46,667 bases of DNA, taken from IMG/VR virus record IMGVR_UViG_3300032893_000002, positions 1-46,667 of that record; one strand, given 5' to 3'. Below, piece after piece: positions 2,943 through 38,908 of the stretch. A program made the translations under genes and the position numbers. Under the pieces are notes generated by a model. It was not told the origin of the DNA and ran no database searches. It worked only from the letters and a program-made list of their open reading frames with translations. The stretch comes from a virus. Each line of letters begins with the position of its first letter. Positions within the stretch are counted from its first letter, which is position 1.

Positions 2943-2943
2943 G

Positions 2944-4122: not shown

Positions 4123-4133
4123 TGTTATCTCCT

Positions 4134-4565: not shown

Positions 4566-4625
4566 GTTGTTGTTTTGTTTCTGCCCACCAGCGGTCGAGA
4601 GTTTCTTTGGGTATTTCGTGATAAG

Positions 4626-4838
4626 TCATATTTCTTCTCTCTTTGTTTCTGCCAGTGACATCATTCTGGCTGGTAGCTGTTCTGCTGTACAGATATTGCC
4701 TTTGGAGTCTACTATGAAAGAGACTCCTCCGACAGAATCTGGACTGAATTGGACAAGGATTAATTCACATACCCTGTCCGCTTTCGTTCCATACATCTTC
4801 TCGAGTTTGAGCAAACGTGCTTTCTGTGCAAGTGTCAC
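4626..4838 (-). CDS. hypothetical protein (70 aa)
   Basis: ATG ORF; its ATG overlaps the stop of the 4838..5017 mini-gene. Confidence 0.45.
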   Translation of the reverse strand: MTLAQKARLLKLEKMYGTKADRVCELILVQFSPDSVGGVSFIVDSKGNICTAEQLPARMMSLAETKREEI

Positions 4839-5017
4839 TATTCAACCTCCCAAGGTTCGAACACACGTGGTTCATCTGGAATTGGTACGCTTGTGCCTCC
4901 TACAACATCGAAGGGCTTTCCGCATGCGTTACACTTCCAGCTCTGTCCATATCCAGGAGCTCCGTACTCTCCTTGATACTCAGTATTGGTGCTTTTGCAG
5001 TATGCGCATTCTTTCAT
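4838..5017 (-). CDS. small zinc-ribbon-like protein (59 aa, below 60-aa track cutoff)
   Basis: Hand translation MKECAYCKSTNTEYQGEYGAPGYGQSWKCNACGKPF...; CxxC..CxxC; GGAGGACTAACA SD; fills an otherwise unexplained gap. Confidence 0.4.
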   Translation of the reverse strand: MKECAYCKSTNTEYQGEYGAPGYGQSWKCNACGKPFDVVGGTSVPIPDEPRVFEPWEVE

Positions 5018-5019
5018 TG

Positions 5020-5187
5020 TTAGTCCTCCTTCCGTCTCTCGACGATTTGTTGTGATGGTTTCAGTCTAATTACTTTCCGATGACTGTAGCCGCTCTTCCT
5101 GTTACGGGAGCTGAAACGAATTCCAGTTCCTTTACATTCGCCGCAGCCTCGTCCCATACCAAAACACTTACCACACTGTCGTTTCAT
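5020..5187 (-). CDS. small Cys-rich protein (55 aa, below track cutoff)
   Basis: Hand translation MKRQCGKCFGMGRGCGECKGTGIRF...; TAAAGGAGGTCCT SD; stop overlaps SD of the next mini-gene. Confidence 0.35.
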   Translation of the reverse strand: MKRQCGKCFGMGRGCGECKGTGIRFSSRNRKSGYSHRKVIRLKPSQQIVERRKED

Positions 5188-5197
5188 AGGACCTCCT

Positions 5198-5530
5198 TTA
5201 CTTTCCGATTTGCGCCCAGGCGTCGGATGTGTAATGTTCGTTGAGATAGTCTACGATCTCGATCAGCCGTTCGTAGTAAGCTTTGTAGTTCGGAGAGTGT
5301 TTGTCTTCAGGTTCTTGTGTGTACTCGACAAATTGAGCTCTGGTCTGCTCCATTGTCTTTCCAATTGCCAAACGGAAGCCGATTGACTCGTACCACTCGT
5401 AATAATATCTTCCGCCAAGTGGCTCCGGTTCGACTCCAAAGTGTTTGCAGATCTCTTCGTCAATTTCTACGAAGCTGACTGGACCAGCTTTAAGATTGGA
5501 CTTCCGGGTAAGCTGAAAGTAATTGGGCAT
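5198..5530 (-). CDS. hypothetical protein (110 aa)
   Basis: Track ORF 5198..5578 trimmed to MPNYFQL... with AAAAGGAGAATAAGCAA SD. Confidence 0.5.
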   Translation of the reverse strand: MPNYFQLTRKSNLKAGPVSFVEIDEEICKHFGVEPEPLGGRYYYEWYESIGFRLAIGKTMEQTRAQFVEYTQEPEDKHSPNYKAYYERLIEIVDYLNEHYTSDAWAQIGK

Positions 5531-5730
5531 TTGCTTATTCTCCTTTTGGATGATACTATGGTATAGCCCCGCGCCCAACTATGCGTTAGACGCGGGACTA
5601 TTAAGGTTTAACTAGCAGGTAATTAGCTTTGGACGATCCCGGATCGTTCTGCGTTTGAGATGTCATCGACAATCATTGTGTACTTGTCCCAACGAATGTT
5701 ATCGATCTTAACTCCTCCCTGATTGATTAA

Positions 5731-6228
5731 CTACTGTTGCTGTTGCATCTTCGGTTGCGTCTCGTCGATTGCCTTTTGGAGCATATCAGCAAGACTTCCT
5801 TGTTCCTTTGCTTTCTGTTCTTTCTCTTTCATTTCGTCTTTCGTTGAACGAACCCGTTCCTTCTTGGGTGGAGCAGGAGGGACGTTCTTCTCGACGACGA
5901 CTTCTTCCTTTCCGACGCCAGCTTTCTTTGCGTCTCGACCGACTTGCTTTGCCAAGAGCTGATCTGCTTCCAAGGCCCATTCGAAAGCAGACTTCTTCGA
6001 TTCATCGTAGGTGCGAACCCAGATGACGATTCCGCCTTGCTTTCCAACAGCAATCTCGGGCCACTCCAGCGGTCCATGTCCTTGAAGAATCACCTTGCCG
6101 TCCCGTTCGCTCTGATCGAACGTCACATCCGGACGCAGTTCTTGCATCTTAGCCAGGAACTTCGCGACCATCGTGGTCTGCTTGGTTGCGATCACAGCGA
6201 CTTGGGTAGCAGTTTGATTGTTCGTCAT
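5731..6228 (-). CDS. hypothetical protein, paralog of 412..924 product
   Basis: Track ORF 5731..6294 trimmed to MTNNQTATQ... with TAAGGAGGATAAT SD; shared G(K/Q)xGIVI motif; Lys/Glu-rich C-terminus. Confidence 0.55.
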   Translation of the reverse strand: MTNNQTATQVAVIATKQTTMVAKFLAKMQELRPDVTFDQSERDGKVILQGHGPLEWPEIAVGKQGGIVIWVRTYDESKKSAFEWALEADQLLAKQVGRDAKKAGVGKEEVVVEKNVPPAPPKKERVRSTKDEMKEKEQKAKEQGSLADMLQKAIDETQPKMQQQQ

Positions 6229-6294
6229 ATTATCCTCCTTAAGGATAAAGGTTAGAGTTGCGTTGATGGTTGGGTTGCGAGAAACTTTTTGCAA

Positions 6295-6537
6295 TCAGAG
6301 AAGCAAGATTGGATGGCCGAGAATTTCTTCAGCCTGCGCAATCCTATCCTCTAGATCCTTCGCTCCGAAGACCCAGTCAAGAAGTTTTGCACTTGTCTCT
6401 GTTCTTTCGGTTACTGATGCTGTGAACAGATGTCGCTCAGTCTGTTTACGAAAGCTGTCCACGACAGAAGAAAAAGCAGCTTTTGCTTTTTCTTCAGTTT
6501 CAGCATCAAACTGGCATTCAATTACGAAGTGTTTCAT
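6295..6537 (-). CDS. hypothetical protein (80 aa)
   Basis: Trimmed to MKHFVIECQ... with AAAAGGAGAATCAAT SD. Confidence 0.45.
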   Translation of the reverse strand: MKHFVIECQFDAETEEKAKAAFSSVVDSFRKQTERHLFTASVTERTETSAKLLDWVFGAKDLEDRIAQAEEILGHPILLL

Positions 6538-6680
6538 ATTGATTCTCCTTTTTCTGGTTAGAGTTGCGTTGATGTTAGGTATTGGGTCGCTCGCCCTTTC
6601 GGGATTCACTCTTATACCTTTAGAAGCCGAGTTCTTTCAGCTTCTCGACAGCTACGGAACAGATAGCTGCGTTCAGCATG

Positions 6681-6833
6681 TTAGTCTCCTTGCTTAGTGA
6701 GTTGTTCGTACTGCTGTTCTAGTTGAGCAAACTTGGTTTCTAGCATGCGCTTCAAATACTTGTCCTTACAGCGTTTGATTTGTATTTGAAGTACTTCTGC
6801 ATGCGTGAGCATATCTTCGCGTGCTTTATCCAT
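6681..6833 (-). CDS. hypothetical protein (50 aa)
   Basis: Trimmed to MDKAREDML... with AGAAAGGAGCTGT SD; coiled-coil-like. Confidence 0.35.
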   Translation of the reverse strand: MDKAREDMLTHAEVLQIQIKRCKDKYLKRMLETKFAQLEQQYEQLTKQGD

Positions 6834-6879
6834 ACAGCTCCTTTCTCTGCGTGGTAAGTATGCGCAGCCCGCTGTTTTG

Positions 6880-7086
6880 TTAGAACCGCCAGACTGCTTT
6901 GACGTTATCCGGCAATGGTTCCGTCTTCCTGACACGGACCGATGCCGGCAAGTCACTTGTCATTCCTGCCAAAGGTTTGACATTTGTTACGCGTGACTGG
7001 CAAGTTACGATTGGTTTGTGTGTTGACTTTTTCAAGCTTGCAACTGAGCGAGCAAGCTCTCGGTAGATTTCCTCTTGTTTGAACAT
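6880..7086 (-). CDS. hypothetical protein (68 aa)
   Basis: ATG ORF, AAGGGACAATCTGT SD-like. Confidence 0.3.
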   Translation of the reverse strand: MFKQEEIYRELARSVASLKKSTHKPIVTCQSRVTNVKPLAGMTSDLPASVRVRKTEPLPDNVKAVWRF

Positions 7087-7199
7087 ACAGATTGTCCCTT
7101 CAGGTTGGTTAAGTTAGAGGAGATGTAGGTGGAGGACTAGCCACACCATAACTCTGACAATGGCTAATCCTAAGCAGAACAGTACGTATCTGATTGGTG

Positions 7200-7430
7200 T
7201 CATCTCACATCCATGATCAGCATTGCGCCGTCTCGGGTGTAAGCAGCCATCCACATCAGAGTGCCAATGTATCCAAGCCTGTGTCGTACAAGCCTGAATA
7301 TTTGGTACAGTACGTACCACTGTTCACGTGTGAACTGCGCGTGATTCATTTGTCTTTGTCCTTTCTTTTGTAACGTTGAAGTAAGGCCATGATGCCGCAG
7401 AATATCATCATGGCCATTGATACGTAGCAT
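7200..7430 (-). CDS. hypothetical protein (start ambiguous)
   Basis: Track ORF 7200..7544 overlaps 7451..7753 by about 90 nt, so an internal start (MLRING at 7430 or MNHAQ at 7349) is more likely; weak SD. Confidence 0.25.
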   Translation of the reverse strand: MLRINGHDDILRHHGLTSTLQKKGQRQMNHAQFTREQWYVLYQIFRLVRHRLGYIGTLMWMAAYTRDGAMLIMDVR

Positions 7431-7450
7431 CCGAACAGCATGGTTCTCAA

Positions 7451-7753
7451 CTACTTCTTCCCACGCAAGACCAGTTGCGCCGGAGCGTACTTGTTCATGT
7501 TCAAGATCTGTTGAGATCCGGGAAGGTAGTGATACATTGCACATCGAAGAGCCTTGTTATATGGTTCTCCATTCGTTACCTGATCCACAACGTTCTCTTC
7601 GAACTTCCGGATGCGTTCCAGAGCCTTCTCTTTGAACTCCACAGCGAGCATTCGGCATACTAGCCCGTAGGCTTTGTCTGCCGCCTCGATGGAAGACATG
7701 TTGGTGAGAAACTCCTTGTTCATGCGAAGGAGCACTTGTGTTGTTGCGTTCAT
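7451..7753 (-). CDS. hypothetical protein (100 aa)
   Basis: ATG ORF with AGAAGAGGATAATAACA SD. Confidence 0.5.
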   Translation of the reverse strand: MNATTQVLLRMNKEFLTNMSSIEAADKAYGLVCRMLAVEFKEKALERIRKFEENVVDQVTNGEPYNKALRCAMYHYLPGSQQILNMNKYAPAQLVLRGKK

Positions 7754-7977
7754 TGTTATTATCCTCTTCTGAGTCGTTTCCTGAGCGACTCTGTTAGTTG
7801 TTATTGGAAGTCAACGTACATCTTGGCAATTTCCACGATCTCGTGTTTGCCAATACGTTTGTTGACAGTCTTCTCACGGAACGCATTTCTTTGTTCCGTA
7901 AGACCCTCACTCTGAAGACGATCCGAGATATGTCGGATGACCTCTTCTGCTTACAGGTTGACTAGCTACACTGCCAA

Positions 7978-8145
7978 TCAGATCTCGCAAGCTATCTTAC
8001 TCAGCAGCATGTGGTTATAGCACTTGCTCATCCACACAGGTACTTCGTGAATGAACGGATCAGCTGCATTACGTAACTCATGCAGCAGCTTTGGATCGTC
8101 TGTCTCGATCACCAGAACGTTCCCTTCATCAAATGCAATTACCAT
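7978..8145 (-). CDS. hypothetical protein (55 aa)
   Basis: Trimmed to MVIAFDEG... with GGAGGTAGT SD. Confidence 0.45.
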   Translation of the reverse strand: MVIAFDEGNVLVIETDDPKLLHELRNAADPFIHEVPVWMSKCYNHMLLSKIACEI

Positions 8146-8146
8146 A

Positions 8147-8341
8147 CTACCTCCTTCCATTCCACCGCTCAGCGGTATTGTTGATTGAATCGTTAAGGAT
8201 TACAGCCGGAACGACATGAGCATCGTTAGGCCGTATGTCTACTACCTTTACAGTCTCAGCACCATCCTCATTCCAGTCTATACACACTAGACGGTATGAG
8301 CCATCAGGCGAGACTAGCACTGATACGTGATCTGCCATCAT
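8147..8341 (-). CDS. hypothetical protein (64 aa)
   Basis: ATG ORF, AAAGGGGGGATGT SD, 1-nt spacing to neighbours. Confidence 0.45.
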   Translation of the reverse strand: MMADHVSVLVSPDGSYRLVCIDWNEDGAETVKVVDIRPNDAHVVPAVILNDSINNTAERWNGRR

Positions 8342-8505
8342 ACATCCCCCTTTGCAATGTGCTTGTCAAACCACTGTTCGATCTTCCGTAGAGCAAGCTC
8401 CTTGTCTTGAAGACATAGCTTACCCTCCTGATAGCGGGGATTATCCGTTACCATGATATGCAGGCTTGGATAATCCCCACGGCTTTGATACAGAGCGATT
8501 GTCAT
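8338..8505 (-). CDS. hypothetical protein (55 aa)
   Basis: Trimmed to MTIALYQ... with CTAAGGAGGCTGTA SD. Confidence 0.45.
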   Translation of the reverse strand: MTIALYQSRGDYPSLHIMVTDNPRYQEGKLCLQDKELALRKIEQWFDKHIAKGDV

Positions 8506-8515
8506 TACAGCCTCC

Positions 8516-8680
8516 TTAGAGTTGAGGATTGGTTGTGAAGATCCACACAAAGCCCATGATCAATACTGTTAGGCTTAGTGCACGTTGTACGCTCTTTGTC
8601 TCGCCTTCAGCAGCAATGGTCATTAGGCTAGGAGCGCCACAGATCAGGAACAGCACTGCGATCGTTACTTGTAGTGACAT
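8516..8680 (-). CDS. small membrane protein (54 aa, below track cutoff)
   Basis: Hand translation MSLQVTIAVLFLICGAPSLMTIAAEGETKSVQRALSLTVLIMGFVWIF...; two hydrophobic helices; GGAGGAAGAAAATAGT SD. Confidence 0.4.
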   Translation of the reverse strand: MSLQVTIAVLFLICGAPSLMTIAAEGETKSVQRALSLTVLIMGFVWIFTTNPQL

Positions 8681-8681
8681 A

Positions 8682-8810
8682 CTATTTTCTTCCTCCGATC
8701 CTTAGGATTAACCCGATACCAGTTAGTAGTAACCCGAAGCACACTGCACCGAACAGTGCAGTGGCTACTAGTTGTTTCAACGCATCTGCTGCGATTTGAA
8801 GCTCTTGCAT
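8682..8810 (-). CDS. small membrane protein (42 aa)
   Basis: Trimmed to MQELQIAADALKQLVATALFGAVCFGLLLTGIGLILRIGGRK with CGAGGAGGAAGT SD; single TM helix; first gene of the minus-strand operon. Confidence 0.4.
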   Translation of the reverse strand: MQELQIAADALKQLVATALFGAVCFGLLLTGIGLILRIGGRK

Positions 8811-9010
8811 ACTTCCTCCTCGTTGTGTGATTTCTACTACTTGTATCACCATACTATGTATGATACCAATTAAGCCCATAGTCATTATACATGCTGTGTT
8901 AACATGCTATTGGTGTAGAACCAAAAGTTATTTTTAAATTACCCGCACTGCCTTTCTTAACTATGGAGAAGTTTTTAAATTTCTACAACTGGTAAATTGT
9001 ATAATATAAT
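8811..9010. promoter_or_regulatory. divergent promoter region between the two arms
   Basis: 200-bp AT-rich gap between the first minus-strand gene and first plus-strand gene; contains TTGTATAATATAAT directly abutting ATG 9011 and several TATAAT-like hexamers on both strands. Confidence 0.5.
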
Positions 9011-9877
9011 ATGACTAGAATTTTCAAACTACTGACTCTCCTTTACAATTTCTTGTGTTCCATACTAAACTTCAGCACTTCTTCCAACGCTTGTACTAAT
9101 ACTCCCGTTTCTACTAACACTTCTGTTCCAACAGAGGCTATAAAAGACAATACTCTGCCTAATCCTATATTACATGCAGAACCAAAAATTATAGAATTGC
9201 AAGAACATGAAATACAGAAAGTACTTCGTATTGAAATTGTTCCGGATAATGCGCATATTGAGCAGAATATTAAAAAGTCCGTGGTACCGCAGAAAGAGAA
9301 GATAGCAAGTCTTATTCAGAGAAAATTTCGGCCTATTGCCTCGTGGACATATGAGGTACAAGAAGAAATTTTGCAGCATCGTGACAAATGTTGGCGTATG
9401 ACTGGCGTTAGTGAGATTGGAGGCACGCCAATGATTGGGAATTTATCTGTAATACGCATGCTGTATAAAATGTATTATGGCTGTGATGCAGACGAATGCC
9501 TTAAGGCGGGCTGCGGACTACAAGGATTTATACGTGTAGGTTGTGTTAATTTCTTTAAGCACGATAGAAATTCGGGGCACATAGAATTGCGTGCAGATCG
9601 GAAACGTAAATTAATTAGTTTACGGCCCATTGCCGCAGCTAAGAGAACGATTGGCAAAGAGTATCCTTCTTTATATAAAGAAGCGCTTAATGATGAAGAA
9701 ACTGCTATCCTCGCCGATATACAGAAAATTTTTAATAAACTGGAAAAATCTGACTGCTATCTTGGGAAGAAAATTCCGCTCGACTGCATCATTGCGCGAA
9801 GCATTTATAAAAATAAACTAGGAATCATCGCAATATTAAAGCACGATAAAAGACTCGCTGCGCGTCTTCAATACTGA
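9011..9877 (+). CDS. hypothetical protein (288 aa) encoded in AT-rich island
   Basis: Long ATG ORF, about 30% GC, hydrophobic N-terminus (possible signal/lipoprotein-like), Lys/Ile/Asn-rich; no motif recognised. Confidence 0.5.
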   Translation: MTRIFKLLTLLYNFLCSILNFSTSSNACTNTPVSTNTSVPTEAIKDNTLPNPILHAEPKIIELQEHEIQKVLRIEIVPDNAHIEQNIKKSVVPQKEKIASLIQRKFRPIASWTYEVQEEILQHRDKCWRMTGVSEIGGTPMIGNLSVIRMLYKMYYGCDADECLKAGCGLQGFIRVGCVNFFKHDRNSGHIELRADRKRKLISLRPIAAAKRTIGKEYPSLYKEALNDEETAILADIQKIFNKLEKSDCYLGKKIPLDCIIARSIYKNKLGIIAILKHDKRLAARLQY

Positions 9878-10275
9878 GTAATAAAATTTCGGTTTCACAT
9901 TCTTCTTTTTCAAAAAGTGGGTACTTCGAGTTTTTATAAAAATTTCTATAACTCGGTAATAGTATAGGTTAATGATTCAGACCAAAAGGTCTTATGCTCG
10001 TTCTCCTCTGCACTGGACAGAGCTTCATCAATGAATAATCTTAATACATTATTCTGGCATATAAAACTGTGATCAAGTCTACTGCTATCTAATAGCCAAG
10101 ACCCATGCACTAGATGAGGATAAACCAGCCCATACGGCACTCGTTCACCTAAGAGAGTACCTACATGGCTTGAGGGCACTTCGCTGCATCATCAAGTGTT
10201 CCTTATGCCACCAACATCTATTCAACGTCTTCTAACATAGATAACTAATATAGAAGAGATAATATAGAGGTAGAT

Positions 10276-10482: not shown

Positions 10483-10751
10483 ATATGTTCTATATACCTG
10501 AGGATGAGATGCAATTTCAATTTCCTATCTTTCGTCGTGATTGTCATCCTGTTCATTTAACTGATGATACAGTTTTATCTTTTATCACTGGTGTTCGTGT
10601 ACTATATAATGCTATGACATATCTGTTTGAGCGGTATGATGATCGTTCAGTTCTCAACGTCTTTAAACAGGATATTGGTGATTACTACGCACTCCGCATA
10701 TTAGCTGCCTTACATTTAATCGTATCACAGGGTAGGGAAGAGCGGGTTTAA
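10467..10751 (+). CDS. hypothetical protein (94 aa)
   Basis: ATG ORF overlapping previous by 16 nt. Confidence 0.4.
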   Translation: MEIQMNMFYIPEDEMQFQFPIFRRDCHPVHLTDDTVLSFITGVRVLYNAMTYLFERYDDRSVLNVFKQDIGDYYALRILAALHLIVSQGREERV

Positions 10752-10806
10752 TGCGCAATCAAAATCGTTAATGCGCAATCAAAAGCAGGATATGCGCAAT
10801 CAAAAA
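10749..10806. repeat. three direct repeats of ATGCGCAATCAAAA at 20-21 bp spacing
   Basis: Seen directly: copies at 10751-10764, 10771-10784, 10792-10805, each preceded by TA/TT; immediately upstream of the CGGTAATAGTATAATTATATG motif. Confidence 0.85.
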
Positions 10807-10819
10807 GAGCGATATAGTG

Positions 10820-10840
10820 CGGTAATAGTATAATTATATG
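10820..10840 (+). promoter_or_regulatory. conserved motif CGGTAATAGTATAATTATATG (putative promoter, extended -10 like)
   Basis: Near-identical to 13719-13740 (CGGTAATTAGTATAATTATATAT) and similar to 9954-9974 (CGGTAATAGTATAGGTTAATG), 8991-9010, 37851-37863. Confidence 0.5.
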
Positions 10841-10860
10841 TCCAAAGGTTATACCTGGCA

Positions 10861-11739: not shown

Positions 11740-11930
11740 CATATACAGGTGAATGCCAGGCGTGTAAGAATACAAAAGACAAGCAGTTAGAAGTTGTAGG
11801 CGCGCAAACAAAACTTGACTACTGCGATTCTCACCTAATCGAGCTTCGTGAATATACGAAAGGCTGGATGGCAGAAATGCAAGAGTTCCTCGTAGAGATT
11901 GAAAAAGAGATTGTGAATAGAGGGTTATAA
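11736..11930 (+). CDS. coding-like ORF with no ATG/GTG/TTG start (possible AUA start or decayed gene)
   Basis: 62 stop-free codons in an AT-rich region translating to ...ECQACKNTKDKQLEVVGAQTKLDYCDSHLIELREYTKGWMAEMQEFLVEIEKEIVNRGL; AGGAGG(11724-11729)-6 nt-ATA(11736); absent from the track because it lacks a canonical start. Confidence 0.3.
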   Translation: MAYTGECQACKNTKDKQLEVVGAQTKLDYCDSHLIELREYTKGWMAEMQEFLVEIEKEIVNRGL

Positions 11931-12051
11931 GTTTTTTGCTATTCCTGGACAAAACCCAGGCCGCTCAACGGGACTAAGTTACAGAGAACCGTTCACCTAA
12001 GTGACGAGAGGTAAGCTACCTGTAACGGACTGAAATTAGCAAATTTTAAAG

Positions 12052-12351
12052 GTGAGTATGGAAGAAAAAGCTAAGTGTGAAATATGCGGTGAACCAATGC
12101 CGGAGGGAGAGGAATCGTTTAAGTATCATGGGTATAGCGGACCATGTCCTAAACCCCCATTACCCAAATCTACAGAAATGCCGGATAGTGATAGAAAGTG
12201 GGTCGATGCATTAAAACCATATATCGGTGGCGGAATTGTGCCGTTCTATACGCTTCCGGATGGATCAGTTGATGCACAGAAGACGATAGACTCCTTTTGT
12301 ATGTTGAATGATGTGAATAAGAGAGTATATCCAAAAAGGAAGAATAAGTAG
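12052..12351 (+). CDS. hypothetical protein (99 aa)
   Basis: ATG ORF; alternative start MEEKAK at 12058 after AAAGGTGAGT. Confidence 0.45.
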   Translation: MSMEEKAKCEICGEPMPEGEESFKYHGYSGPCPKPPLPKSTEMPDSDRKWVDALKPYIGGGIVPFYTLPDGSVDAQKTIDSFCMLNDVNKRVYPKRKNK

Positions 12352-12791: not shown

Positions 12792-13211
12792 TTGGATAAA
12801 GTAGTTGACAGAATTTATGTAGGCGATAATCTAGATCCTCATGAATTACGCGTTAGTAATTCGGAGCAGATTGGAGCAATATTGAATGTATGCGAAACAT
12901 TTGATCCTGCTCTAGACGTTGCATCTTTGCATATGCCATTTGCCGATTGCGCTCCAATTCCTACATACGAATTTCAAACTTGTATGTCGTGGCTTGAGCA
13001 ACAGTATCGACGATCAGACAGAAATATTTTTATTCATTGCCATTTAGGGATAAGTAGAAGTCCAACGATATGTGCTTCATTTATGTTTTTACAGAAGATT
13101 TCACCGACAATACAAGAAGCATTAGCTACGATTAAAGCAGCTAGACCAATCATAAATCCTCATCCTTTAACACTTCAGTCAGCTATTACGTATTTAGAGG
13201 AGATGAAATGA
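12792..13211 (+). CDS. CX5R-type (dual-specificity / protein-tyrosine family) phosphatase
   Basis: P-loop IHCHLGISRSPT = HC(X5)R(S/T) signature plus upstream Asp (PFADCAP); TTG start after GGGAGGAAAGATAA SD; size typical of minimal DUSP or RNA/polynucleotide phosphatases. Confidence 0.65.
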   Translation: MDKVVDRIYVGDNLDPHELRVSNSEQIGAILNVCETFDPALDVASLHMPFADCAPIPTYEFQTCMSWLEQQYRRSDRNIFIHCHLGISRSPTICASFMFLQKISPTIQEALATIKAARPIINPHPLTLQSAITYLEEMK

Positions 13212-13714
13212 AAACAGATGGACTCTGCGGAATTGAATGGTTTAAAGCAAATAAAGAACTTCAAAACGCGTCAAGAGAAAAGTGGGATGTTAGATTTTTG
13301 GAATTGGCTAAGTTTATTGCCAGTTGGTCTAAAGATCCTTCTACTAAGACTGGAGCCGTAATTGTTCGGCCTAATAAATCGGTTGCTTCTGTTGGGTTTA
13401 ACGGCTTCCCTACTAAGTTAATTGATTCCGAAAAAGATTATTCTAATCGAGATGTAAAGTATAGTAAGATCATTCATTGTGAAATGAATGCGCTTCTATT
13501 TGCGCGTGAACAAGTAACAGGATATACACTCTATACCTATCCTCTTGCTTCTTGCGAACGTTGTGCAGTTCATATGATTCAAGCCGGAATTACAAGATGT
13601 GTATTTCCAAAGATTCCACACGATCAACAAGAACGCTGGCAAGATTCAGTAAATAGGACAAAGACGTATTTAACAGAAGCAGAAGTTGACTGGCGTGAAG
13701 TAGATTTTGAATAA
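13208..13714 (+). CDS. dCMP (deoxycytidylate) deaminase
   Basis: Zinc-binding motifs HCEMNAL (H-x-E) and SCERC (C-x-x-C) at canonical spacing; length and layout of ComEB/dCMP deaminase family. Confidence 0.8.
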   Translation: MKTDGLCGIEWFKANKELQNASREKWDVRFLELAKFIASWSKDPSTKTGAVIVRPNKSVASVGFNGFPTKLIDSEKDYSNRDVKYSKIIHCEMNALLFAREQVTGYTLYTYPLASCERCAVHMIQAGITRCVFPKIPHDQQERWQDSVNRTKTYLTEAEVDWREVDFE

Positions 13715-13718
13715 GGAC

Positions 13719-13740
13719 GGTAATTAGTATAATTATATAT
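13719..13740 (+). promoter_or_regulatory. conserved motif CGGTAATTAGTATAATTATATAT (putative promoter)
   Basis: Second copy of the 10820-10840 motif; TATAAT at 13728-13733, ATG of a small ORF 5 nt downstream. Confidence 0.5.
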
Positions 13741-13900
13741 GGCAAAGATTTTTAAGCTTGTACTACCAAACGAAAAAGGTATTTTCGTAATTCCAGCGGA
13801 ATACAGTGGCTGCAAGTTTATAATTAGAGATCATAGATGTTTTGTTATTCTAGAAGAAGGTAAACAAGAAATTCTTGAAAATGTACAGGAGCTTGCATGA
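13739..13900 (+). CDS. small ORF (53 aa, below track cutoff)
   Basis: Hand translation MAKIFKLVLPNEKGIFVIPAEYSGCKFIIRDHRCFVILEEGKQEILENVQELA; stop overlaps ATG of the next gene (ATGA); no SD, so leaderless or near-leaderless if real. Confidence 0.3.
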   Translation: MAKIFKLVLPNEKGIFVIPAEYSGCKFIIRDHRCFVILEEGKQEILENVQELA

Positions 13901-14292
13901 AATTCTTTCAAAAGGCTTCCGATGGAGGAAAAGATTCGGGCGTTACAGCTTATTTCTTAGTAGAAATTAAATCTTTATTCTCGATAACGCTTTTACATTT
14001 CGAACCTAGTCACAGAGAAGCTTTTCATAGTCACGCATTTAATGCTGTGACTCTATGGTTAAAGGGCGTTGCAGTAGAAGAAGTTAGAGACGAAAAAGGA
14101 ATAACCGTTAATTTGTGGGCAGCGGGTAAGTTTAAGTATACGCCACGAGAGTTAATGCATAGGATTAAAGTATTACGAAAGGGAGCTTGGGCTTTATCTA
14201 TTCGCGGCTCTTGGCAAGAACAGTGGCAAGAGTATCATCCAAGTATACGAAAAGTAATTACTTTAACACATGGCAGAAAACAAATTAATTAA
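13897..14292 (+). CDS. hypothetical protein (131 aa), possible cupin-like His cluster
   Basis: HFEPSHREAFHSH histidine cluster; otherwise no motif. Confidence 0.4.
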   Translation: MKFFQKASDGGKDSGVTAYFLVEIKSLFSITLLHFEPSHREAFHSHAFNAVTLWLKGVAVEEVRDEKGITVNLWAAGKFKYTPRELMHRIKVLRKGAWALSIRGSWQEQWQEYHPSIRKVITLTHGRKQIN

Positions 14293-14312
14293 GGAGAACG
14301 CAGGAGATTTTT

Positions 14313-14495
14313 GTGGAAGATAATCAATTGAAGTGTAGCCTTACGACATATGATCAATTAAAAGACTATGCTTATTACTTTCTATCTCAAAAACTAATTA
14401 CAGAACCTCAATTTCATAACATCATGGAATTTTTAGGGAAGAAAGAATTACAAGAAAAGAACGCATATAAGGCAGTTTGGGGAGCAGGAGAATAA
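14313..14495 (+). CDS. hypothetical protein (60 aa)
   Basis: Non-ATG (GTG) start in track, GGAGATTTTT SD. Confidence 0.3.
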   Translation: MEDNQLKCSLTTYDQLKDYAYYFLSQKLITEPQFHNIMEFLGKKELQEKNAYKAVWGAGE

Positions 14496-14497
14496 GT

Positions 14498-14668
14498 ATG
14501 AGTAAAATAGTCGAATATACTGTTTACATAGATGACGATTCGCTATCTGTTTTTGCCGATCGTTTTGACTACTCTATTTCAGGAAATAGTATTACGTTTT
14601 ATATTGGAGATGATACAGTTGCGCTCTTTAATATGACTTATACAAGAGGCATCGTGAGAACAGGTTAG
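14498..14668 (+). CDS. hypothetical protein (56 aa)
   Basis: Trimmed to MSKIVEY... with GGAGCAGGAGAATAAGT SD. Confidence 0.4.
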   Translation: MSKIVEYTVYIDDDSLSVFADRFDYSISGNSITFYIGDDTVALFNMTYTRGIVRTG

Positions 14669-14728
14669 GAATAATTTTTAGTAACCCTTGAAAAATCACA
14701 CAACTTTTAATATAATACATATCCCGCA

Positions 14729-15490
14729 ATGCACAAACCTCTAGGCATTAAAAATTACGGAAGCATCGGCCATCTACCTCAGAGCCGTCTGGGACCAGGA
14801 GATCATAAGGTTCCAGACGGACAGGCCGCTATATGTATTGAACAAACAAGAGATGAGTATGATAGAGTAATTGTTACAGAAAAATTAGACGGTTCGAATT
14901 GTGGTGTAGCTTTACTTGATGGACAGATTTTAGCTTTAGGTAGAGCAGGATATTTAGCACAATCCTCTCCTTACGAACAGCATCAACTATTTGCCTACTG
15001 GGTTAGACAAAATGAAGCAAGTTTTCGTAAAATTCTACGAGAAGGCGAACGATGCGTCGGCGAATGGCTGGCGCAAGCACATGGAACTAAATACGACTTG
15101 CCTTGTCCGCCGTTCTGCGTTTTTGATATTATGAAAGGACGTGAGCGCGCTCCGTGGAGCGAAGTATTAGAACGTTGCTATCCTTTAGTTAATACTGTTC
15201 CAGTATTACATGATGGAGGAGCCGTAGCGATAGAAACAATTATGCATGATTTAAATGCTGTTCCAAGGGCGTATGGACAATGCGATGAAAAAAGATTTTA
15301 TGGTTGGTTTGGTGCGATGGAAGAAGTAGAAGGAGCTGTTTGGCGAGTTGAAAGAAAAGGAAAATTTGACTTTATGGCGAAGTATGTCAATCCAGATAAG
15401 CTTGATGGGAAGTACTTAGAAAAAGTAAGCGGACAGCCGCCTATATGGAATTGGAGACCAAATGCTGAAGATAGTGTTATCAATTTATAA
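14729..15490 (+). CDS. ATP-dependent polynucleotide ligase-like nucleotidyltransferase (RNA ligase-like, 253 aa)
   Basis: Covalent nucleotidyltransferase motifs in order: I VTEKLDGSN (KxDG), III CVGEWL, IV EGAVWRVERKG, V KYV; size fits small RNA-ligase family (PF09414-like) rather than DNA ligase. Confidence 0.55.
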   Translation: MHKPLGIKNYGSIGHLPQSRLGPGDHKVPDGQAAICIEQTRDEYDRVIVTEKLDGSNCGVALLDGQILALGRAGYLAQSSPYEQHQLFAYWVRQNEASFRKILREGERCVGEWLAQAHGTKYDLPCPPFCVFDIMKGRERAPWSEVLERCYPLVNTVPVLHDGGAVAIETIMHDLNAVPRAYGQCDEKRFYGWFGAMEEVEGAVWRVERKGKFDFMAKYVNPDKLDGKYLEKVSGQPPIWNWRPNAEDSVINL

Positions 15491-15653
15491 GGACGATAAT
15501 GCTCAACCGCTGTTTCAAATTCGTGGAGATGCTTTTGAATCATTATGTTGGGTGGCAGAAGATGATAAAAAAGGGATTAAAGATGATGGAAGGGTATTGA
15601 AAAATCTCGGTTATTGGCCAAATCTACCGCGCAAAGAGGAAAATAAGGATTAG
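15462..15653 (+). CDS. hypothetical protein (63 aa)
   Basis: ATG ORF with GGAGA SD, overlaps previous gene end by 29 nt. Confidence 0.35.
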   Translation: MLKIVLSIYKDDNAQPLFQIRGDAFESLCWVAEDDKKGIKDDGRVLKNLGYWPNLPRKEENKD

Positions 15654-15656
15654 TAT

Positions 15657-16055
15657 ATGGGATCGAGAGCGCCAAAACCTACAAAGAGGGAAGTTGACGC
15701 TGTACTTGCGCAATTAGAAAAATTAGATGTTCCTCCAGTAGATTATTCACAACGTTGCCTTACAGATGGTTCTCCTATAACTTCAGATCATAAAGAAATT
15801 GATCCTATTACAAAACAACAGAAAGACTATATAGTTCTGACAGCAGAGGAACGTGCTAAAGGATTCGTTCGTCCAGTTCGAGATACTTACACACATCTGA
15901 AGTGCAATTCTGATACAACAATGGGCAGAGCTATTGCAGAAACCTACGCGCGTGAACCAAAATTTTATAGCGGAACATTCTGCTGTACTTGCCAACAACA
16001 TTTCCCGCTAGACGAATTTGTCTGGAAGGGTACAGAAGAGATACTAGGAACATAG
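15657..16055 (+). CDS. hypothetical protein (132 aa)
   Basis: ATG ORF; Cys cluster FCCTCQQH near C-terminus. Confidence 0.45.
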   Translation: MGSRAPKPTKREVDAVLAQLEKLDVPPVDYSQRCLTDGSPITSDHKEIDPITKQQKDYIVLTAEERAKGFVRPVRDTYTHLKCNSDTTMGRAIAETYAREPKFYSGTFCCTCQQHFPLDEFVWKGTEEILGT

Positions 16056-16156
16056 AGTATGAGACTGAGACGTAAGTAGGCGGCAGGTTCCGCACTCAAC
16101 CAAAGCCGGTAAATTCTCAGATATAATCCGGCAGAATTAAGCAAAAAGTAAGAAAA

Positions 16157-16516
16157 ATGGAGAAAATAGCATTAATGGACTTTAATTTCTATCATGAAGA
16201 AGCATTAAAATCGGCTGTTTATCCGAATATTGGTAATAATCCGCATTATCCGCTGATGGGTTTGGCAGGAGAAGTTGGTGAAGTAGCAGAGAAGATTAAG
16301 AAACTATGGCGCGATAAGAACCAATCTAAAGGTGCAGAATTCTCTGCAGAAGATAAAGAAGCTATAGCACTAGAACTTGGCGATGTACTTTGGTATGTAT
16401 CAGCTCTGGCTAGAGAAATAGGTTTGCCATTAGAAAAAGTAGCATCTCTAAATTTGGCAAAGTTGGGTTCTCGCAAACAGAGAAATAAAGTACATGGTTC
16501 GGGGGATAATAGATAG
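16157..16516 (+). CDS. mazG: MazG-type nucleoside triphosphate pyrophosphohydrolase
   Basis: Canonical MazG motifs LAGEVGEVAEKIKK (E-x-x-E-x-x-E) and ELGDVLWYVSALA. Confidence 0.8.
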   Translation: MEKIALMDFNFYHEEALKSAVYPNIGNNPHYPLMGLAGEVGEVAEKIKKLWRDKNQSKGAEFSAEDKEAIALELGDVLWYVSALAREIGLPLEKVASLNLAKLGSRKQRNKVHGSGDNR

Positions 16517-16813
16517 ATGATGACTACAGAGAGCATGCTCAAGCAATTTGAAGAGTTAACAAAGAAGATGGTCGAAGTTGTTACAGCGAAGAATAAAGAT
16601 TACTCACGCGGGGAATCTCCATTTAAAAATCTTGTACGACACGGAACTTATGGAATAGTTGTTCGAATGGACGACAAGATTTGCAGATTAGATTCATTAA
16701 CAAGTCCGAAATATGGTGGGGAACCAGCAATAAAATCGGAATCAATTGAAGATACGGCGTTAGATTTGGCTATATATAGCTTACTTCTGATACTGTTACA
16801 TAGAGATTCATGA
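16517..16813 (+). CDS. hypothetical protein, possible second all-alpha NTP-pyrophosphatase-like protein
   Basis: Weak MazG-like helix IEDTALDLAIYSLLLIL; low-confidence functional guess. Confidence 0.3.
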   Translation: MMTTESMLKQFEELTKKMVEVVTAKNKDYSRGESPFKNLVRHGTYGIVVRMDDKICRLDSLTSPKYGGEPAIKSESIEDTALDLAIYSLLLILLHRDS

Positions 16814-16983
16814 AAGACATTGCGTATTATCCAGCTCCAAATCAGTATTTTTACGATAGAAGAGCTAAAATTAAAGAGGAAAATCGGTGTTCTAAATGCG
16901 ATGGCTTCGGATATATTTTAGTTGAGGAGCATAGCTGGGAATTATGTCTAGCATGCTATGCGACAGGACAACAGATTGACTGA
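16810..16983 (+). CDS. small zinc-ribbon protein (57 aa, below track cutoff)
   Basis: Hand translation MKDIAYYPAPNQYFYDRRAKIKEENRCSKCDGFGYILVEEHSWELCLACYATGQQID; ATGA overlap with previous stop. Confidence 0.35.
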   Translation: MKDIAYYPAPNQYFYDRRAKIKEENRCSKCDGFGYILVEEHSWELCLACYATGQQID

Positions 16984-19600: not shown

Positions 19601-19630
19601 TTGACATTATCAGGTTTGGCAATATATAAT
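19601..19630 (+). promoter_or_regulatory. sigma70-like promoter
   Basis: TTGACA (19601-19606) followed 17-18 nt later by TATATAAT (19623-19630), upstream of ORF 19671. Confidence 0.5.
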
Positions 19631-22712: not shown

Positions 22713-22723
22713 GAGCTAGTATA

Positions 22724-22975
22724 ATGGGAATTTGCGTCATCACACATAATCAGGCAAAGAAGTGGGAAGATACAGACGTTAGGCCGAATTGTTCACATCA
22801 TTTTCATATATCTGCAAAACAGGCATATATTGCCGTAGGCGAAGATAATGCGAATTGGTTCGATGGCCCATCTTCAAGAGCAATAGTTTTTCATGATTGC
22901 GTATTAAGATATGAGTGGCAGGCTAGAAAAAGTATAGGGTTTAACGTTTTGCAGATGGTACCAATTAGAAAATGA
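22724..22975 (+). CDS. hypothetical protein (83 aa)
   Basis: ATG ORF whose ATG lies inside a TAGTATAAT motif; stop overlaps terL start. Confidence 0.4.
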   Translation: MGICVITHNQAKKWEDTDVRPNCSHHFHISAKQAYIAVGEDNANWFDGPSSRAIVFHDCVLRYEWQARKSIGFNVLQMVPIRK

Positions 22976-37810: not shown

Positions 37811-37879
37811 TCAAAAAATTATTTTGTGGGGTGGAGCAATCTGCCCCACAAGTAATTGTATAATTGGGAAAGGAGATTT

Positions 37880-38040: not shown

Positions 38041-38721
38041 ATGATTTCTATTCTACTGCCTACAAGAAAGCGGTTTTTACGTCTTCAAAAAATGGTTCTT
38101 TCTATCAAAGAGACAGCGCATACTTACCCGGAGATTGTAGTTTATATAGATGAAGACGATAGAGAAAGCATAGAGAAAGTCGTTGAGTTGGATGTAAAAG
38201 CTATAGTCGGCCCTAGATTAGTATTTTCTGATAACTGGAACAAATGTCATGAAAAGGCGATTGGCGATATTTTAATGATGGGTGCCGACGATCTAATCTT
38301 TAGGACTCCTGGGTGGGATCTTATAGTAGAGGAAGAATTTGCAAAATCAGCAGATAAGATCGTTCTTGTATACGGCGACGATCTTCAAATTCATGTTCCT
38401 TCGCATCCATTTATTCATCAACGATGGGTAGAAGCAGTCGGCTACTTCAGCCCGCCATATTTTCAATATGGCGGTTGCGATGTCTGGTTGCACGATATAG
38501 CTCGTTTTCTTGGCCGAAAACGATTTGCTAACTTTGTTATCGAACATATGCATCCTGAAACAGGGAAAGCTGCAATGGATGCTACATATTATGATCGCGT
38601 AGAAAGACAAAAGAAATATGATGTAATCAAACAATACGGCGAACTCGCATTCAAGAGAATCGAAGATGCCGCAAAACTTATGGATGTTATAGAAAGCAAT
38701 ACGAATAAAGTAATTGTATAA
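38041..38721 (+). CDS. putative glycosyltransferase (GT2-like)
   Basis: N-terminal ISILLPTRKR matches the conserved GT2 first strand (I-x-I-P-T-x-N/K-R); MGADDLIF DxD-like; trimmed from track start 38011. Confidence 0.4.
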   Translation: MISILLPTRKRFLRLQKMVLSIKETAHTYPEIVVYIDEDDRESIEKVVELDVKAIVGPRLVFSDNWNKCHEKAIGDILMMGADDLIFRTPGWDLIVEEEFAKSADKIVLVYGDDLQIHVPSHPFIHQRWVEAVGYFSPPYFQYGGCDVWLHDIARFLGRKRFANFVIEHMHPETGKAAMDATYYDRVERQKKYDVIKQYGELAFKRIEDAAKLMDVIESNTNKVIV

Positions 38722-38908
38722 TTCATTTATGGCGCTTTACTATTGTCAAGCACAAGTTTTAGCAAAGAGCGGAGCTATAAAAGTAGGCATGCATGACACT
38801 GTTAAAGCAGCGCATGAATGCGCAATTCTAAATTTAGCGCTTCGCGATAGGGGTATAGCAGAAGAGGCAGCTATATTATTACATCCAGAATTAAAAGAAG
38901 ATAACTAG
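38714..38908 (+). CDS. hypothetical protein (64 aa)
   Basis: ATG ORF overlapping previous stop. Confidence 0.3.
   Translation: MYNSFMALYYCQAQVLAKSGAIKVGMHDTVKAAHECAILNLALRDRGIAEEAAILLHPELKEDN

What the first reader, a model, noticed from the sequence alone, without database searches (positions are those of the whole stretch)
10820..10840. Recurrent 20-nt motif CGGTAAT(T)AGTATAAT... with start codons immediately downstream
CGGTAATAGTATAATTATATG (10820-10840) and CGGTAATTAGTATAATTATATAT (13719-13740) are near-identical. Related copies occur at 9954-9974 (CGGTAATAGTATAGGTTAATG), 8991-9010 (GGTAAATTGTATAATATAAT|ATG), 22712-22726 (TAGTATAATG) and 37851-37863 (GTAATTGTATAAT). All contain a consensus -10 hexamer, and an ATG follows within 0-5 nt in four of them. 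For the first gene of the plus arm (9011) the TATAAT hexamers abut the ATG. Read as promoters these would make leaderless or near-leaderless mRNAs. For 22724 the ATG lies inside the hexamer, which questions that start. Alternatively the motif is an operator for a phage regulator.
Basis: seen in the sequence. Interest (0 to 1): 0.6.

Follow-up and report, generated by a model that had tools for sequence, protein, structure and literature searches.

The report
Phage promoter family abutting start codons
The repeated motif is real and is most likely a family of six promoters without a -35 box in an uncultured soil or peat phage; three sit so close to a start codon that the mRNA would have no leader, which is a new example of known promoter kinds, not a new mechanism.

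Summary
The motif exists and is far above chance. GTAA-W(1-3)-GTATAAT occurs 5 times against 0.04 in shuffles. A position-weight scan separates six sites (18.5-21.8 bits) from everything else (14.5 or less). The six sites are 8990, 9954, 10820, 13718, 37850 and 38708.

All six lie on the + strand, co-directional with the genes. Five lie wholly in the 6% of the plus arm that is intergenic. None has a -35 box or a canonical TGn, whereas the phage also carries ordinary TTGACA-17/18-TATAAT promoters.

Three sites (ATG 9011, 13739, 38729) have TATAAT, 5-6 nt, then an ATG with no Shine-Dalgarno, which is the leaderless geometry. The ATGs at 9972 and 10838 are not gene starts.

In 89-94% identical strains the promoter regions are mutation-free. 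A 23-nt copy of the motif flanks an inserted two-gene cassette of about 890 nt, so the copies also mark recombination boundaries, as PeSLs do in T4-type phages.

A true relative (L022) has GGTATAnT-N5-ATG at unrelated genes. No phage sigma factor, RNA polymerase or regulator was found.

Function is inferred throughout; no transcript 5' ends were mapped.

The parts
8990..9005 (+). P1: TGGTAAATTGTATAAT. TATAAT is at 9000-9005, followed by 5 nt (ataat) and ATG 9011 of a 288-aa ORFan with a signal-peptide-like N-terminus. No Shine-Dalgarno. Leaderless candidate.
   Evidence: 19.9 bits. No differences from strain L005 across 8920-9060. Best -35 match is 3 of 6.
9954..9970 (+). P2: CGGTAATAGTATAGGTTA. 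It heads a conserved stretch of about 300 nt with no ORF (9975-10275) that precedes gene 10276. The -10 is TATAGG or the overlapping TAGGTT.
   Evidence: 18.5 bits. This is the exact breakpoint of L002. It is duplicated around the inserted cassette in L005.
10820..10834 (+). P3: CGGTAATAGTATAAT. The predicted start is near 10840-10841, giving a leader of about 20 nt to gene 10861.
   Evidence: 21.8 bits. 10791-10849 is identical in L005, while the leader 10850-10859 has 4 changes.
10751..10805 (+). Three exact ATGCGCAATCAAAA boxes, starting 20 and 21 bp apart, directly upstream of P3. Their centres are at about -42, -63 and -83 from the inferred start. Candidate regulator sites specific to P3.
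   Evidence: They are exact only here and in L001 and L005, and are conserved in L005.
13718..13733 (+). P4: CGGTAATTAGTATAAT. TATAAT is at 13728-13733, followed by 5 nt (tatat) and ATG 13739 of a 53-aa gene that is coupled to a 131-aa cupin-like gene. No Shine-Dalgarno. Leaderless candidate.
   Evidence: 21.8 bits. It lies in a 124-nt run free of differences (13665-13788) against strain L255, which is 11.2% divergent overall.
37850..37865 (+). P10: AAGTAATTGTATAATT. It is directly preceded by a 12-bp stem-loop (37824-37851). The predicted start is near 37870, giving a leader of about 10 nt that carries the AAGGAG Shine-Dalgarno of ATG 37880.
   Evidence: 19.3 bits. Hairpin energy is -20.3 kcal/mol with z = -4.46.
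38708..38723 (+). P11: AAGTAATTGTATAATT. TATAAT is at 38717-38722, followed by 6 nt (tcattt) and ATG 38729 of a 59-aa gene. No Shine-Dalgarno. It overlaps the stop codon of gene 38011-38721. Leaderless candidate, or translational coupling.
   Evidence: 19.3 bits. Independent gene callers start the gene at this ATG.
8879..8891 (-). Divergent partner promoter for the minus arm: TGTATAAT, 4 nt, then ATG 8879 (65 aa). No Shine-Dalgarno and no GTAAT block. Related geometry, but not a motif member.
16108..16127 (+). Possible relative: GGTAAATT, 6 nt, then TATAAT, upstream of the MazG gene (16157). The block spacing differs from the six members.
   Evidence: The intergenic run 16057-16151 is identical in L255. 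It falls below the PWM threshold.
22717..22726 (+). Not a member: TAGTATAATG with no GTAAT block, inside the operon just before gene 22724.
   Evidence: It is conserved in L004, but only within a region that is 98% identical, so this is uninformative.
19601..19630 (+). For contrast: canonical TTGACA-18-TATAAT promoter (12 of 12 matches) with a 40-nt leader and a Shine-Dalgarno. It is one of a second promoter class; the others are at 14688-14716, 20386-20414 and 21042-21070.

Best explanation
The six copies of (C/T/A)(G/A)GTAA-W(1-3)-GTATAAT are promoters of the phage's plus arm. They are read by a host sigma-70-type RNA polymerase that needs only a -10 element.

**How it works**
- The TATAAT is the -10 hexamer. 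There is no -35 box.
- The GTAAT block, at about -15 to -21, is a promoter-proximal extension. Its recognition is unknown: a sigma region 3-like contact, an accessory factor, or inherited flank.
- Transcription would start 6-7 nt after the hexamer.

**Predicted transcripts**
- At P1 (ATG 9011), P4 (13739) and P11 (38729) the start falls on the A of an ATG that has no Shine-Dalgarno. The mRNAs would be leaderless and translated directly from the 5' AUG.
- P10 would give a leader of about 10 nt that consists of the Shine-Dalgarno.
- P3 would give a leader of about 20 nt.
- P2 would give a conserved untranslated RNA of about 300 nt.

**Second role**
Each promoter heads a small gene cassette. Because the copies are near-identical, they also serve as sites of homologous recombination that insert, delete or swap cassettes between strains.

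**Shown and inferred**
- Shown: sequence, enrichment, placement, conservation and the cassette junctions.
- Inferred: promoter activity, start sites, leaderless translation and the host polymerase.
For: **Enrichment and placement**
- Enrichment is 5 against 0.04, and there is a clean PWM gap between six sites and the rest.
- All six are on the + strand. Five lie wholly in the 6.0% of the plus arm that is intergenic.

**Promoter type**
- The -35 matches (1-4 of 6) are no better than at random positions (mean 2.9). The phage's canonical promoters score 5-6 of 6.

**Leaderless geometry**
- A perfect TATAAT lies 4-6 nt before the start at exactly 4 of 85 gene starts. All four lack a Shine-Dalgarno, whereas 51 of 85 starts have one.
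- At P1, P4 and P11, -1 is T and +1 is A.
- The N-terminus at 9011 looks like a signal peptide, which supports that ATG as the true start (read from the sequence).

**Conservation**
- Against strains L005 and L255, which differ by about 11%, there are no differences across 8920-9060, 10791-10849 and 13665-13788.

**Cassette junctions**
- L002 diverges 3 nt after the P2 hexamer.
- L005 carries TAACCCGGTAATAGTATAGGTTA twice, flanking two extra genes. The first of those genes has its ATG 7-9 nt after the hexamer and no Shine-Dalgarno.

**Relatives**
- L022 shares 11 proteins with the window (portal 62% identical). It has GGTATAnT-N5-ATG three times against 0.04 expected, at non-homologous ORFs.
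- L003 has CCGGTATAAC-N6-ATG at its first plus-arm gene.

**Literature**
- TANNNT about 12 nt before the start codon marks leaderless genes. These are predicted for 9.7-19.4% of genes in Acidobacteria (PMC3160421).
- A -10 motif 6-7 bp before an ORF has been shown experimentally to act as a promoter without a -35 box in Deinococcus (PMC12340547).
- The nearest large-terminase relatives in genomes are prophages in Acidobacteriota MAGs, at up to 57% identity.
Against: - No transcript 5' ends were mapped, and the host is unknown. The host's GC content would be about 58% against 38-48% for the phage.
- A TATAAT with neither a -35 box nor TG at -15/-14 would be weak with E. coli polymerase.
- Genes 13739 and 38729 lie 24 and 7 nt after the stop of the preceding gene. 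They could be translated by re-initiation on a longer mRNA.
- The motif definition is post hoc.
- Pairs of copies may be similar simply through recent duplication: P3/P4, P10/P11 and P1/P2. The pairwise exact repeats of 14-16 nt are not by themselves longer than those in shuffles.
- The conservation evidence rests on two variant strains only.
Confidence: 0.7

Rival explanations
1. The GTAAT block, together with the AT-rich right half of the -10 region, is an operator or activator site. A phage or host DNA-binding protein would bind it and switch all six promoters together. The motif would then be a promoter plus a regulator site, not a bare promoter.
For: - The block sits at -15 to -21, where repressors occlude polymerase. 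Promoters without a -35 box often need an activator.
- Its spacing to the -10 varies by 0-1 nt, as expected for a separately recognised element.
- There is a partial dyad, read from the sequence: TAATTA-GTA-TAATTA at P4 (6 of 7 pairs) and AATT-N4-AATT at P10 and P11.
- The phage has a second, canonical promoter class, so the two classes may be regulated differently.
- P3 additionally carries three upstream repeat boxes.
Against: - The best-conserved bases (GG at -19/-20 and G at -13) have no mirror partner. AATT-type dyads are trivial in AT-rich DNA.
- All copies share one orientation relative to transcription.
- No helix-turn-helix protein, sigma factor or other regulator was detected among about 60 ORFs scanned with Pfam or PHROGs. 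Most of these are ORFans, however, so this evidence is weak.
Confidence: 0.25
2. Only the -10 hexamer is functional. The extra similarity reflects common descent of promoter cassettes that spread by duplication and recombination. On this view the 20-nt motif is a boundary or linker sequence, not a recognition element.
For: - Similarity is strongest in pairs: P1/P2 share 34 nt at 76% identity, P3/P4 share 21 nt with one indel, and P10/P11 share 16 of 16 nt.
- Copies bound an indel between strains.
- P10 and P11 flank a glycosyltransferase cassette whose homologue sits elsewhere in L022.
- Relatives use a different flank: GGTATAnT, with CGTGGGAA upstream in L022.
Against: - GTAA and G at -13 are kept across all three pairs, despite divergent surroundings and a 1-nt spacer change.
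- No point substitution was seen inside the block in the variant strains.
Confidence: 0.2
3. The motif is the promoter of a phage-encoded RNA polymerase or sigma factor, like the T7-type 23-bp promoters or the T4 late TATAAATA promoters.
For: - A conserved sequence of about 20 nt ends near the start site.
- The P2 version, AGTATAGG, superficially recalls the T7 sequence ACTATAGG.
Against: - No ORF is long enough, or similar enough, to be a single-subunit polymerase. The largest ORFs are the large terminase with its intein, the portal and structural proteins.
- There was no hit to a sigma factor or a gp55-like protein.
Confidence: 0.04
4. The similarity is a chance resemblance among AT-rich intergenic sequences and has no function.
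For: - TATAAT alone is at background frequency.
- Single 14-16-mers repeat in shuffles too.
- The 18-mer occurs at random in unrelated metagenome contigs.
Against: - The composite pattern occurs 5 times against 0.04 expected.
- All copies share one strand, and five are confined to 6% of the sequence.
- The sites are invariant in divergent strains and sit exactly at recombination junctions.
Confidence: 0.02

Closest known systems
Leaderless ('TA-led') genes, where a -10 motif lies next to the ORF. Examples: Deinococcus, Actinobacteria, predicted in Acidobacteria; lambda cI from P_RM (from my own knowledge).
   Same: TANNNT or TATAAT lies 5-7 nt before the ATG. There is no Shine-Dalgarno and no -35 box, so the promoter doubles as the translation-start signal (PMC3160421; PMC12340547).
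   Different: - Only 3 of the 6 motif copies have this geometry, plus one promoter on the minus arm that is not a member.
- Most genes of this phage use strong Shine-Dalgarno sequences.
- The extra GTAAT block is not part of the described -10 motif.
Extended -10 (TGnTATAAT) promoters, including the middle and late promoters of Thermus phages that work without a -35 box (from my own knowledge).
   Same: Both are independent of a -35 box and carry conserved bases directly upstream of a consensus -10. The relative L022 has a true TGG-TATAnT.
   Different: In the window, TG is at -14/-13 in three copies and AG in the other three, not at -15/-14. The conserved block extends further upstream, to about -21, with variable spacing.
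PeSLs (promoter-early stem-loops) of T4-type phages (Arbiol et al. 2010, PMC2839356; PMC4122927).
   Same: Both are repeated strong early-type promoters placed before ORFans in variable regions. Recombination between copies creates insertions and deletions between close strains, as seen for L005 and L002 against the window.
   Different: - PeSLs have full -35/-10 consensus promoters, an AT-rich upstream tract, a stem-loop, and a Shine-Dalgarno before the gene.
- Here there is no -35 box, a stem-loop only at P10, and several genes with no leader.
- There are six copies here, not about 50.
Operators of phage repressors that overlap early promoters (lambda O_R/O_L type).
   Same: A short conserved sequence overlaps the core promoter and recurs at several early promoters.
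   Different: The motif is not clearly palindromic. The copies are dispersed across 30 kb instead of clustered at an immunity region. No repressor gene was recognised.

Membership tests
Canonical sigma-70 -35/-10 promoter | A -10 hexamer close to TATAAT | tested here: met
   Five of six copies have a perfect TATAAT. P2 has TATAGG, overlapping TAGGTT.
Canonical sigma-70 -35/-10 promoter | A TTGACA-like hexamer 16-18 nt upstream of the -10 | tested here: not met
   The best matches are 1-4 of 6 at spacers of 15-19 nt, no better than at random positions (mean 2.9). The phage's own canonical promoters score 5-6 of 6.
Extended -10 promoter (TGn) | TG at -15/-14, one base before the hexamer | tested here: not met
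   The three bases before the hexamer are TTG in three copies and TAG in three. G is therefore at -13, not -14. The feature is met in relative L022, which has TGGTATAnT.
Leaderless / TA-led genes | A -10 hexamer ending 5-7 nt before the start codon of a real ORF | tested here: met
   - Met at P1 (5 nt, 288 aa), P4 (5 nt, 53 aa) and P11 (6 nt, 59 aa), and at the minus-arm promoter (4 nt).
- Not met at P2, P3 and P10.
Leaderless / TA-led genes | No Shine-Dalgarno before the start codon | tested here: met
   None is found within -5 to -17 at 9011, 13739, 38729 or 8879, whereas 51 of 85 starts have one.
Leaderless / TA-led genes | The transcript 5' end coincides with the A of the start codon | not testable with these tools
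   This needs 5'-RACE, differential RNA-seq or Cappable-seq.
PeSL-type mobile regulatory cassettes | A repeated promoter motif upstream of ORFans in variable regions | tested here: met
   The six copies head genes without family hits. The region differs between strains.
PeSL-type mobile regulatory cassettes | Indels between close genomes bounded by motif copies | tested here: met
   In L005 an insertion of about 890 nt is flanked by two 23-nt copies. The L002 junction lies 3 nt after the hexamer. This is one event seen in two contigs.
PeSL-type mobile regulatory cassettes | A stable stem-loop integrated in the motif | tested here: not met
   Only P10 has one (-20.3 kcal/mol, z = -4.46). The regions around P2 and P4 fold no better than shuffles.
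Phage-polymerase promoters (T7-like) or phage sigma promoters (T4 late) | The phage encodes its own RNA polymerase or sigma factor | tested here: not met
   No such ORF or family hit was found. The ORFans remain untested by structure.
Repressor operator | Dyad symmetry of the conserved bases | tested here: inconclusive
   Read from the sequence, AT-rich pseudo-dyads are present: P4 has 6 of 7 pairs and P3 has 5 of 7. The conserved G positions are unpaired.
Repressor operator | A cognate DNA-binding protein encoded nearby | tested here: not met
   No helix-turn-helix or repressor family was detected in either arm.

The most novel reading that the evidence does not exclude
The GTAAT block is a promoter-specificity element read by an as yet unrecognised phage ORFan protein, or by a peculiarity of the sigma factor of an uncultured acidobacterial-type host. 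It would define a separately regulated class of promoters without a -35 box that produce leaderless mRNAs. The same 16-23-nt units would act as portable 'promoter plus start' cassette ends that shuttle ORFan genes between phages of this soil or peat lineage.
Probability: 0.2. Interest if true: 0.55.

Novelty: new member of a known kind. Interest (0 to 1): 0.35.

Why it matters
- It gives a usable transcription map for a phage lineage with no cultured representative and almost no annotated early genes. The map consists of two promoter classes, three or four leaderless genes, and corrected calls for which ATGs are real starts.
- If confirmed, it would extend two known phenomena to an uncultured soil or peat phage. 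One is the '-10 adjacent to the ORF' mode of expression. The other is PeSL-like cassette shuffling through promoters, so far described in T4-type phages.
- It also supplies compact promoters for a poorly tractable host group.
- It does not point to a new mechanism.

Tried and rejected
**Searches for relatives that found nothing useful**
- Nucleotide and protein searches of cultured phages found no close relative.
- IMG/VR scans with the 288-aa protein, the portal protein and the exact 21-mer found nothing.
None was related to the window, so that scan was wasted.
- Homologues of the 131-aa cupin-like gene led to unrelated phages (L256, L258).
- Exact-protein look-ups mostly returned copies that were 99-100% identical and so uninformative.
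- Most large-terminase relatives have 54-72% GC and lack the motif.

**Other negative results**
- Rfam and tRNA scans found nothing.
- Pfam and PHROGs scans of about 60 ORFs found no sigma factor, RNA polymerase or regulator.

**Readings considered and rejected**
- A T7-like or T4-late promoter: the phage has no polymerase or sigma gene.
- GGTAAT as the true -10: it lacks the T at -7 in 5 of 6 copies.
- GGTAAT as a signal on its own: it occurs at background frequency on both strands.
- Sites 17053 and 22717 as family members: both fall below the PWM cut-off, and the G of 17053 is changed in L255.

Full report
**Context**

The window is a novel tailed phage.
- It carries a portal gene (30251-31843), a small terminase (about 21049-21843) and a large terminase interrupted by an intein (22972-25908).
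- A minus-strand arm (1-8885, 44-48% GC) and a plus-strand arm (9011 to the end, 38-40% GC) diverge from a 125-nt intergenic region.
- By a simple criterion, 51 of 85 gene starts have a Shine-Dalgarno of the AGGAG type.
- No cultured phage is close.
- Copies that are 99-100% identical occur in six or more metagenome samples.
- The nearest large terminases in genomes are prophages in Acidobacteriaceae, Bryobacteraceae and Terriglobia MAGs, at up to 57% identity. An acidobacterial host is therefore plausible but unproven.

Yes, with corrections. All quoted strings are present, two of them one base off.
- The composite pattern GTAA-W(1-3)-GTATAAT occurs 5 times, all on the + strand, against 0.04 in 300 dinucleotide shuffles. 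TATAAT alone is at background, 58 against 47.
- A two-block weight matrix gives six sites at 18.5-21.8 bits: 8990, 9954, 10820, 13718, 37850 and 38708. The next best site scores 14.5, which is the level of the best hit in shuffles.
- The matrix was trained on these six sites. What it shows is that the family has six members and no weaker tail.
- The 22712 copy is only TAGTATAATG and is not a member. Nor is GGTATAGTATAAAT at 17053, whose G is changed in strain L255.
- Five of the six sites lie wholly in the 6.0% of the plus arm that is intergenic. The sixth overlaps the last 12 nt of a gene.

**Anatomy**

Aligned on the hexamer, the copies read (C/T/A)(G/A)GTAA, then 1-3 A or T, then G, then TATAAT.
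- None has a -35 box. The best matches are 1-4 of 6, against a random mean of 2.9.
- None has TG at -15/-14. The G is at -13.
- The same phage also has ordinary promoters without the GTAAT block: TTGACA-18-TATAAT at 19601, TTGAAA-17-TATAAT at 14688, TTGACA-17-TATTTT at 20386 and TTGACA-17-TATCTT at 21042. A further one, TTGACC-17-TATAAT, lies on the minus arm near 1016-988.
- There are therefore two promoter classes.

**Distance to start codons**

| Site | Hexamer to ATG | Gene | Shine-Dalgarno |
|---|---|---|---|
| P1 | TATAAT-ataat-ATG (9011) | 288 aa | none |
| P4 | TATAAT-tatat-ATG (13739) | 53 aa | none |
| P11 | TATAAT-tcattt-ATG (38729) | 59 aa | none |
| Minus arm | TGTATAAT-gact-ATG (8879) | 65 aa | none |

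- In P1, P4 and P11, -1 is T and +1 is A.
- These are the only 4 of 85 starts with a perfect TATAAT 4-6 nt upstream.
- The product of 9011 begins MTRIFKLLTLLYNFLCSILNF. This looks like a signal peptide, which supports that ATG as the true start (sequence).
- This is the geometry of leaderless genes. TANNNT about 12 nt before the start codon marks such genes, which are predicted for 9.7-19.4% of genes in Acidobacteria (PMC3160421). A -10 motif 6-7 bp before the ORF acts as a promoter independent of a -35 box in Deinococcus (PMC12340547).
- The ATGs 3 nt after the hexamer at P2 (9972) and P3 (10838) are too close to be starts and open only 20 and about 29 codons. In strain L005 the first is ACG and the second ORF is 7 codons.
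- P3 would therefore serve gene 10861 through a leader of about 20 nt.
- P10 would serve ATG 37880 through a leader of about 10 nt that is essentially the AAGGAG Shine-Dalgarno.
- P2 would produce an RNA of about 300 nt with no credible ORF.

**Conservation**

Three contigs (L004, L005, L255) from a co-occurring strain are 89-95% identical to the window.
- Over 13198-18143 there are 557 differences in 4973 columns. Even so, 13665-13788 (P4), 14663-14748 (the canonical promoter at 14688) and 16057-16151 (a GGTAAATT-N6-TATAAT site) are free of differences.
- Against L005, 8920-9060 (P1) and 10791-10849 (P3 plus the nearest repeat box) are free of differences. The 20-nt leader after P3 has four changes.
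- With only two strains this is suggestive, not proof.

**Recombination junctions**

- L002 is 99.9% identical to the window up to 9971, then becomes unrelated three bases after the P2 hexamer.
- L005 explains this. It carries TAACCCGGTAATAGTATAGGTTA twice, about 890 nt apart, around two genes (105 and 167 aa) that the window lacks.
- The sequence upstream of the second copy and the sequence downstream of the first copy are unrelated to the window.
- The first inserted gene has its ATG 9 nt after TATAGG, which is 7 nt after the overlapping TAGGTT, and has no Shine-Dalgarno.
- The motif therefore travels with a cassette as its promoter, and the copies delimit an indel.
- P10 and P11 are identical 16-mers 858 nt apart. 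They flank a small ORF and a glycosyltransferase-like gene whose homologue (42% identical) sits at a different place in relative L022.
- This behaviour matches the PeSL cassettes of T4-type phages (PMC2839356). The composition differs: there is no -35 box, and only P10 has an adjacent stem-loop (-20.3 kcal/mol, z = -4.46).

**Relatives**

- L022 (40% GC, on a 175-kb IMG/VR contig) shares 11 proteins with the window (portal 62%, large terminase 49%).
- In its region of small ORFs, GGTATAnT-N5-ATG occurs three times against 0.04 expected. Each opens an ORF of 68-127 aa that is not homologous to the window's genes. Further cases have a 7-nt gap. There the upstream bases form a true TGn extended -10.
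- L003 (large terminase 52% identical) has CCGGTATAAC-N6-ATG before its first plus-arm gene.
- The lineage trait is therefore a -10-only promoter abutting the ATG. The GTAAT extension is specific to the window phage, and L022 has its own upstream element, CGTGGGAA.

**What recognises it?**

- No sigma factor, RNA polymerase or DNA-binding regulator was detected among about 60 ORFs scanned with Pfam or PHROGs, or in the precomputed hits.
- Host sigma-A holoenzyme is therefore the default reader.
- The role of the GTAAT block remains open. The options are a sigma contact, an accessory factor or inherited flank.
- P3 alone has three exact ATGCGCAATCAAAA boxes, starting 20 and 21 bp apart. Their centres are at about -42, -63 and -83 from the inferred start, positions typical of activator sites.

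**Verdict**

The motif is a genuine family of six promoters without a -35 box. Three are probable leaderless promoters, and the copies also mark cassette boundaries. The finding is a new member of known kinds. All functional statements are inferences that await mapping of transcript 5' ends.

Noticed in passing
window 22972-25908 (intein about 23130-24408) and 21772-22491; L004: The large terminase carries a LAGLIDADG intein. A GIY-YIG endonuclease gene (21821-22486) lies between the small and large terminase genes. Strain L004 is 92-95% identical and lacks both: its large terminase is 554 aa and 99% identical over the exteins. The two homing elements are therefore polymorphic in the population.
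   Followed up: partly
window 10751-10805: Three exact 14-bp boxes, ATGCGCAATCAAAA, start 20 and 21 bp apart immediately upstream of P3. They are conserved in L005 and are exact nowhere else in the window or in 134 loci. They could be regulator sites or iterons.
   Followed up: partly
window 9975-10275: The 300-nt region downstream of P2 has no ORF and is only 4.7% divergent from L005, against about 11% for the surrounding genes. It folds modestly better than shuffles (z = -2.1). The antisense 77-aa ORF accumulates mostly amino-acid-changing differences. It is a candidate non-coding RNA or long 5' UTR. Rfam gave no hit.
   Followed up: partly
window 10142-10156 and 11990-12004: CGTTCACCTAAG(A/T)GA is shared by two separate stretches that have no ORF (9975-10275 and 11740-12057). 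The rest of the two regions does not align convincingly.
   Followed up: partly
window minus arm, e.g. 3686-3702, 3508-3524, 1906-1920, 1623-1636: The minus arm has highly stereotyped translation-start cassettes, AAAGGAGAACAACA-ATG, repeated as 14-17-nt exact repeats before several genes. A 19-mer direct repeat, GGTTAGAGTTGCGTTGATG, occurs at 6250 and 6556.
   Followed up: no
window 1-8885 against 9011-46667: The two arms differ in composition: 44-48% GC and strongly negative AT skew on the minus arm, against 38-40% GC on the plus arm. All 23 minus-arm ORFs lack any significant Pfam or PHROGs family hit.
   Followed up: no
window 38011-44234; L003 13306-23016: A large cluster of sugar-nucleotide and modification genes includes glycosyltransferases, an NAD-dependent epimerase, C-methyltransferases and a cupin. 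A related cluster is present in relative L003. It may serve virion or DNA glycosylation.
   Followed up: no
window 32285-32345 and 37225-37330: Very stable stem-loops (-25.9 and -43.6 kcal/mol, z about -4) follow gene 32037-32279 and the 655-aa structural gene. They are probably terminators or processing sites of the late operon.
   Followed up: partly
window 14688-14731 and 20386-20426: Two canonical promoters also sit unusually close to start codons that lack a Shine-Dalgarno. ATG 14729 is 12 nt after the -10, and ATG 20424 is 9 nt after it. These imply leaders of about 3-6 nt, so near-leaderless expression is not restricted to the motif class.
   Followed up: partly
L022 1900-1937, 5503-5540 (minus strand), 1809-1850 (minus strand): The related phage has its own element upstream of the promoter, CGTGG(G)(G)A(A), followed by 4-5 nt before GGTATAnT. 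This suggests that each phage has its own promoter-proximal signature.
   Followed up: no
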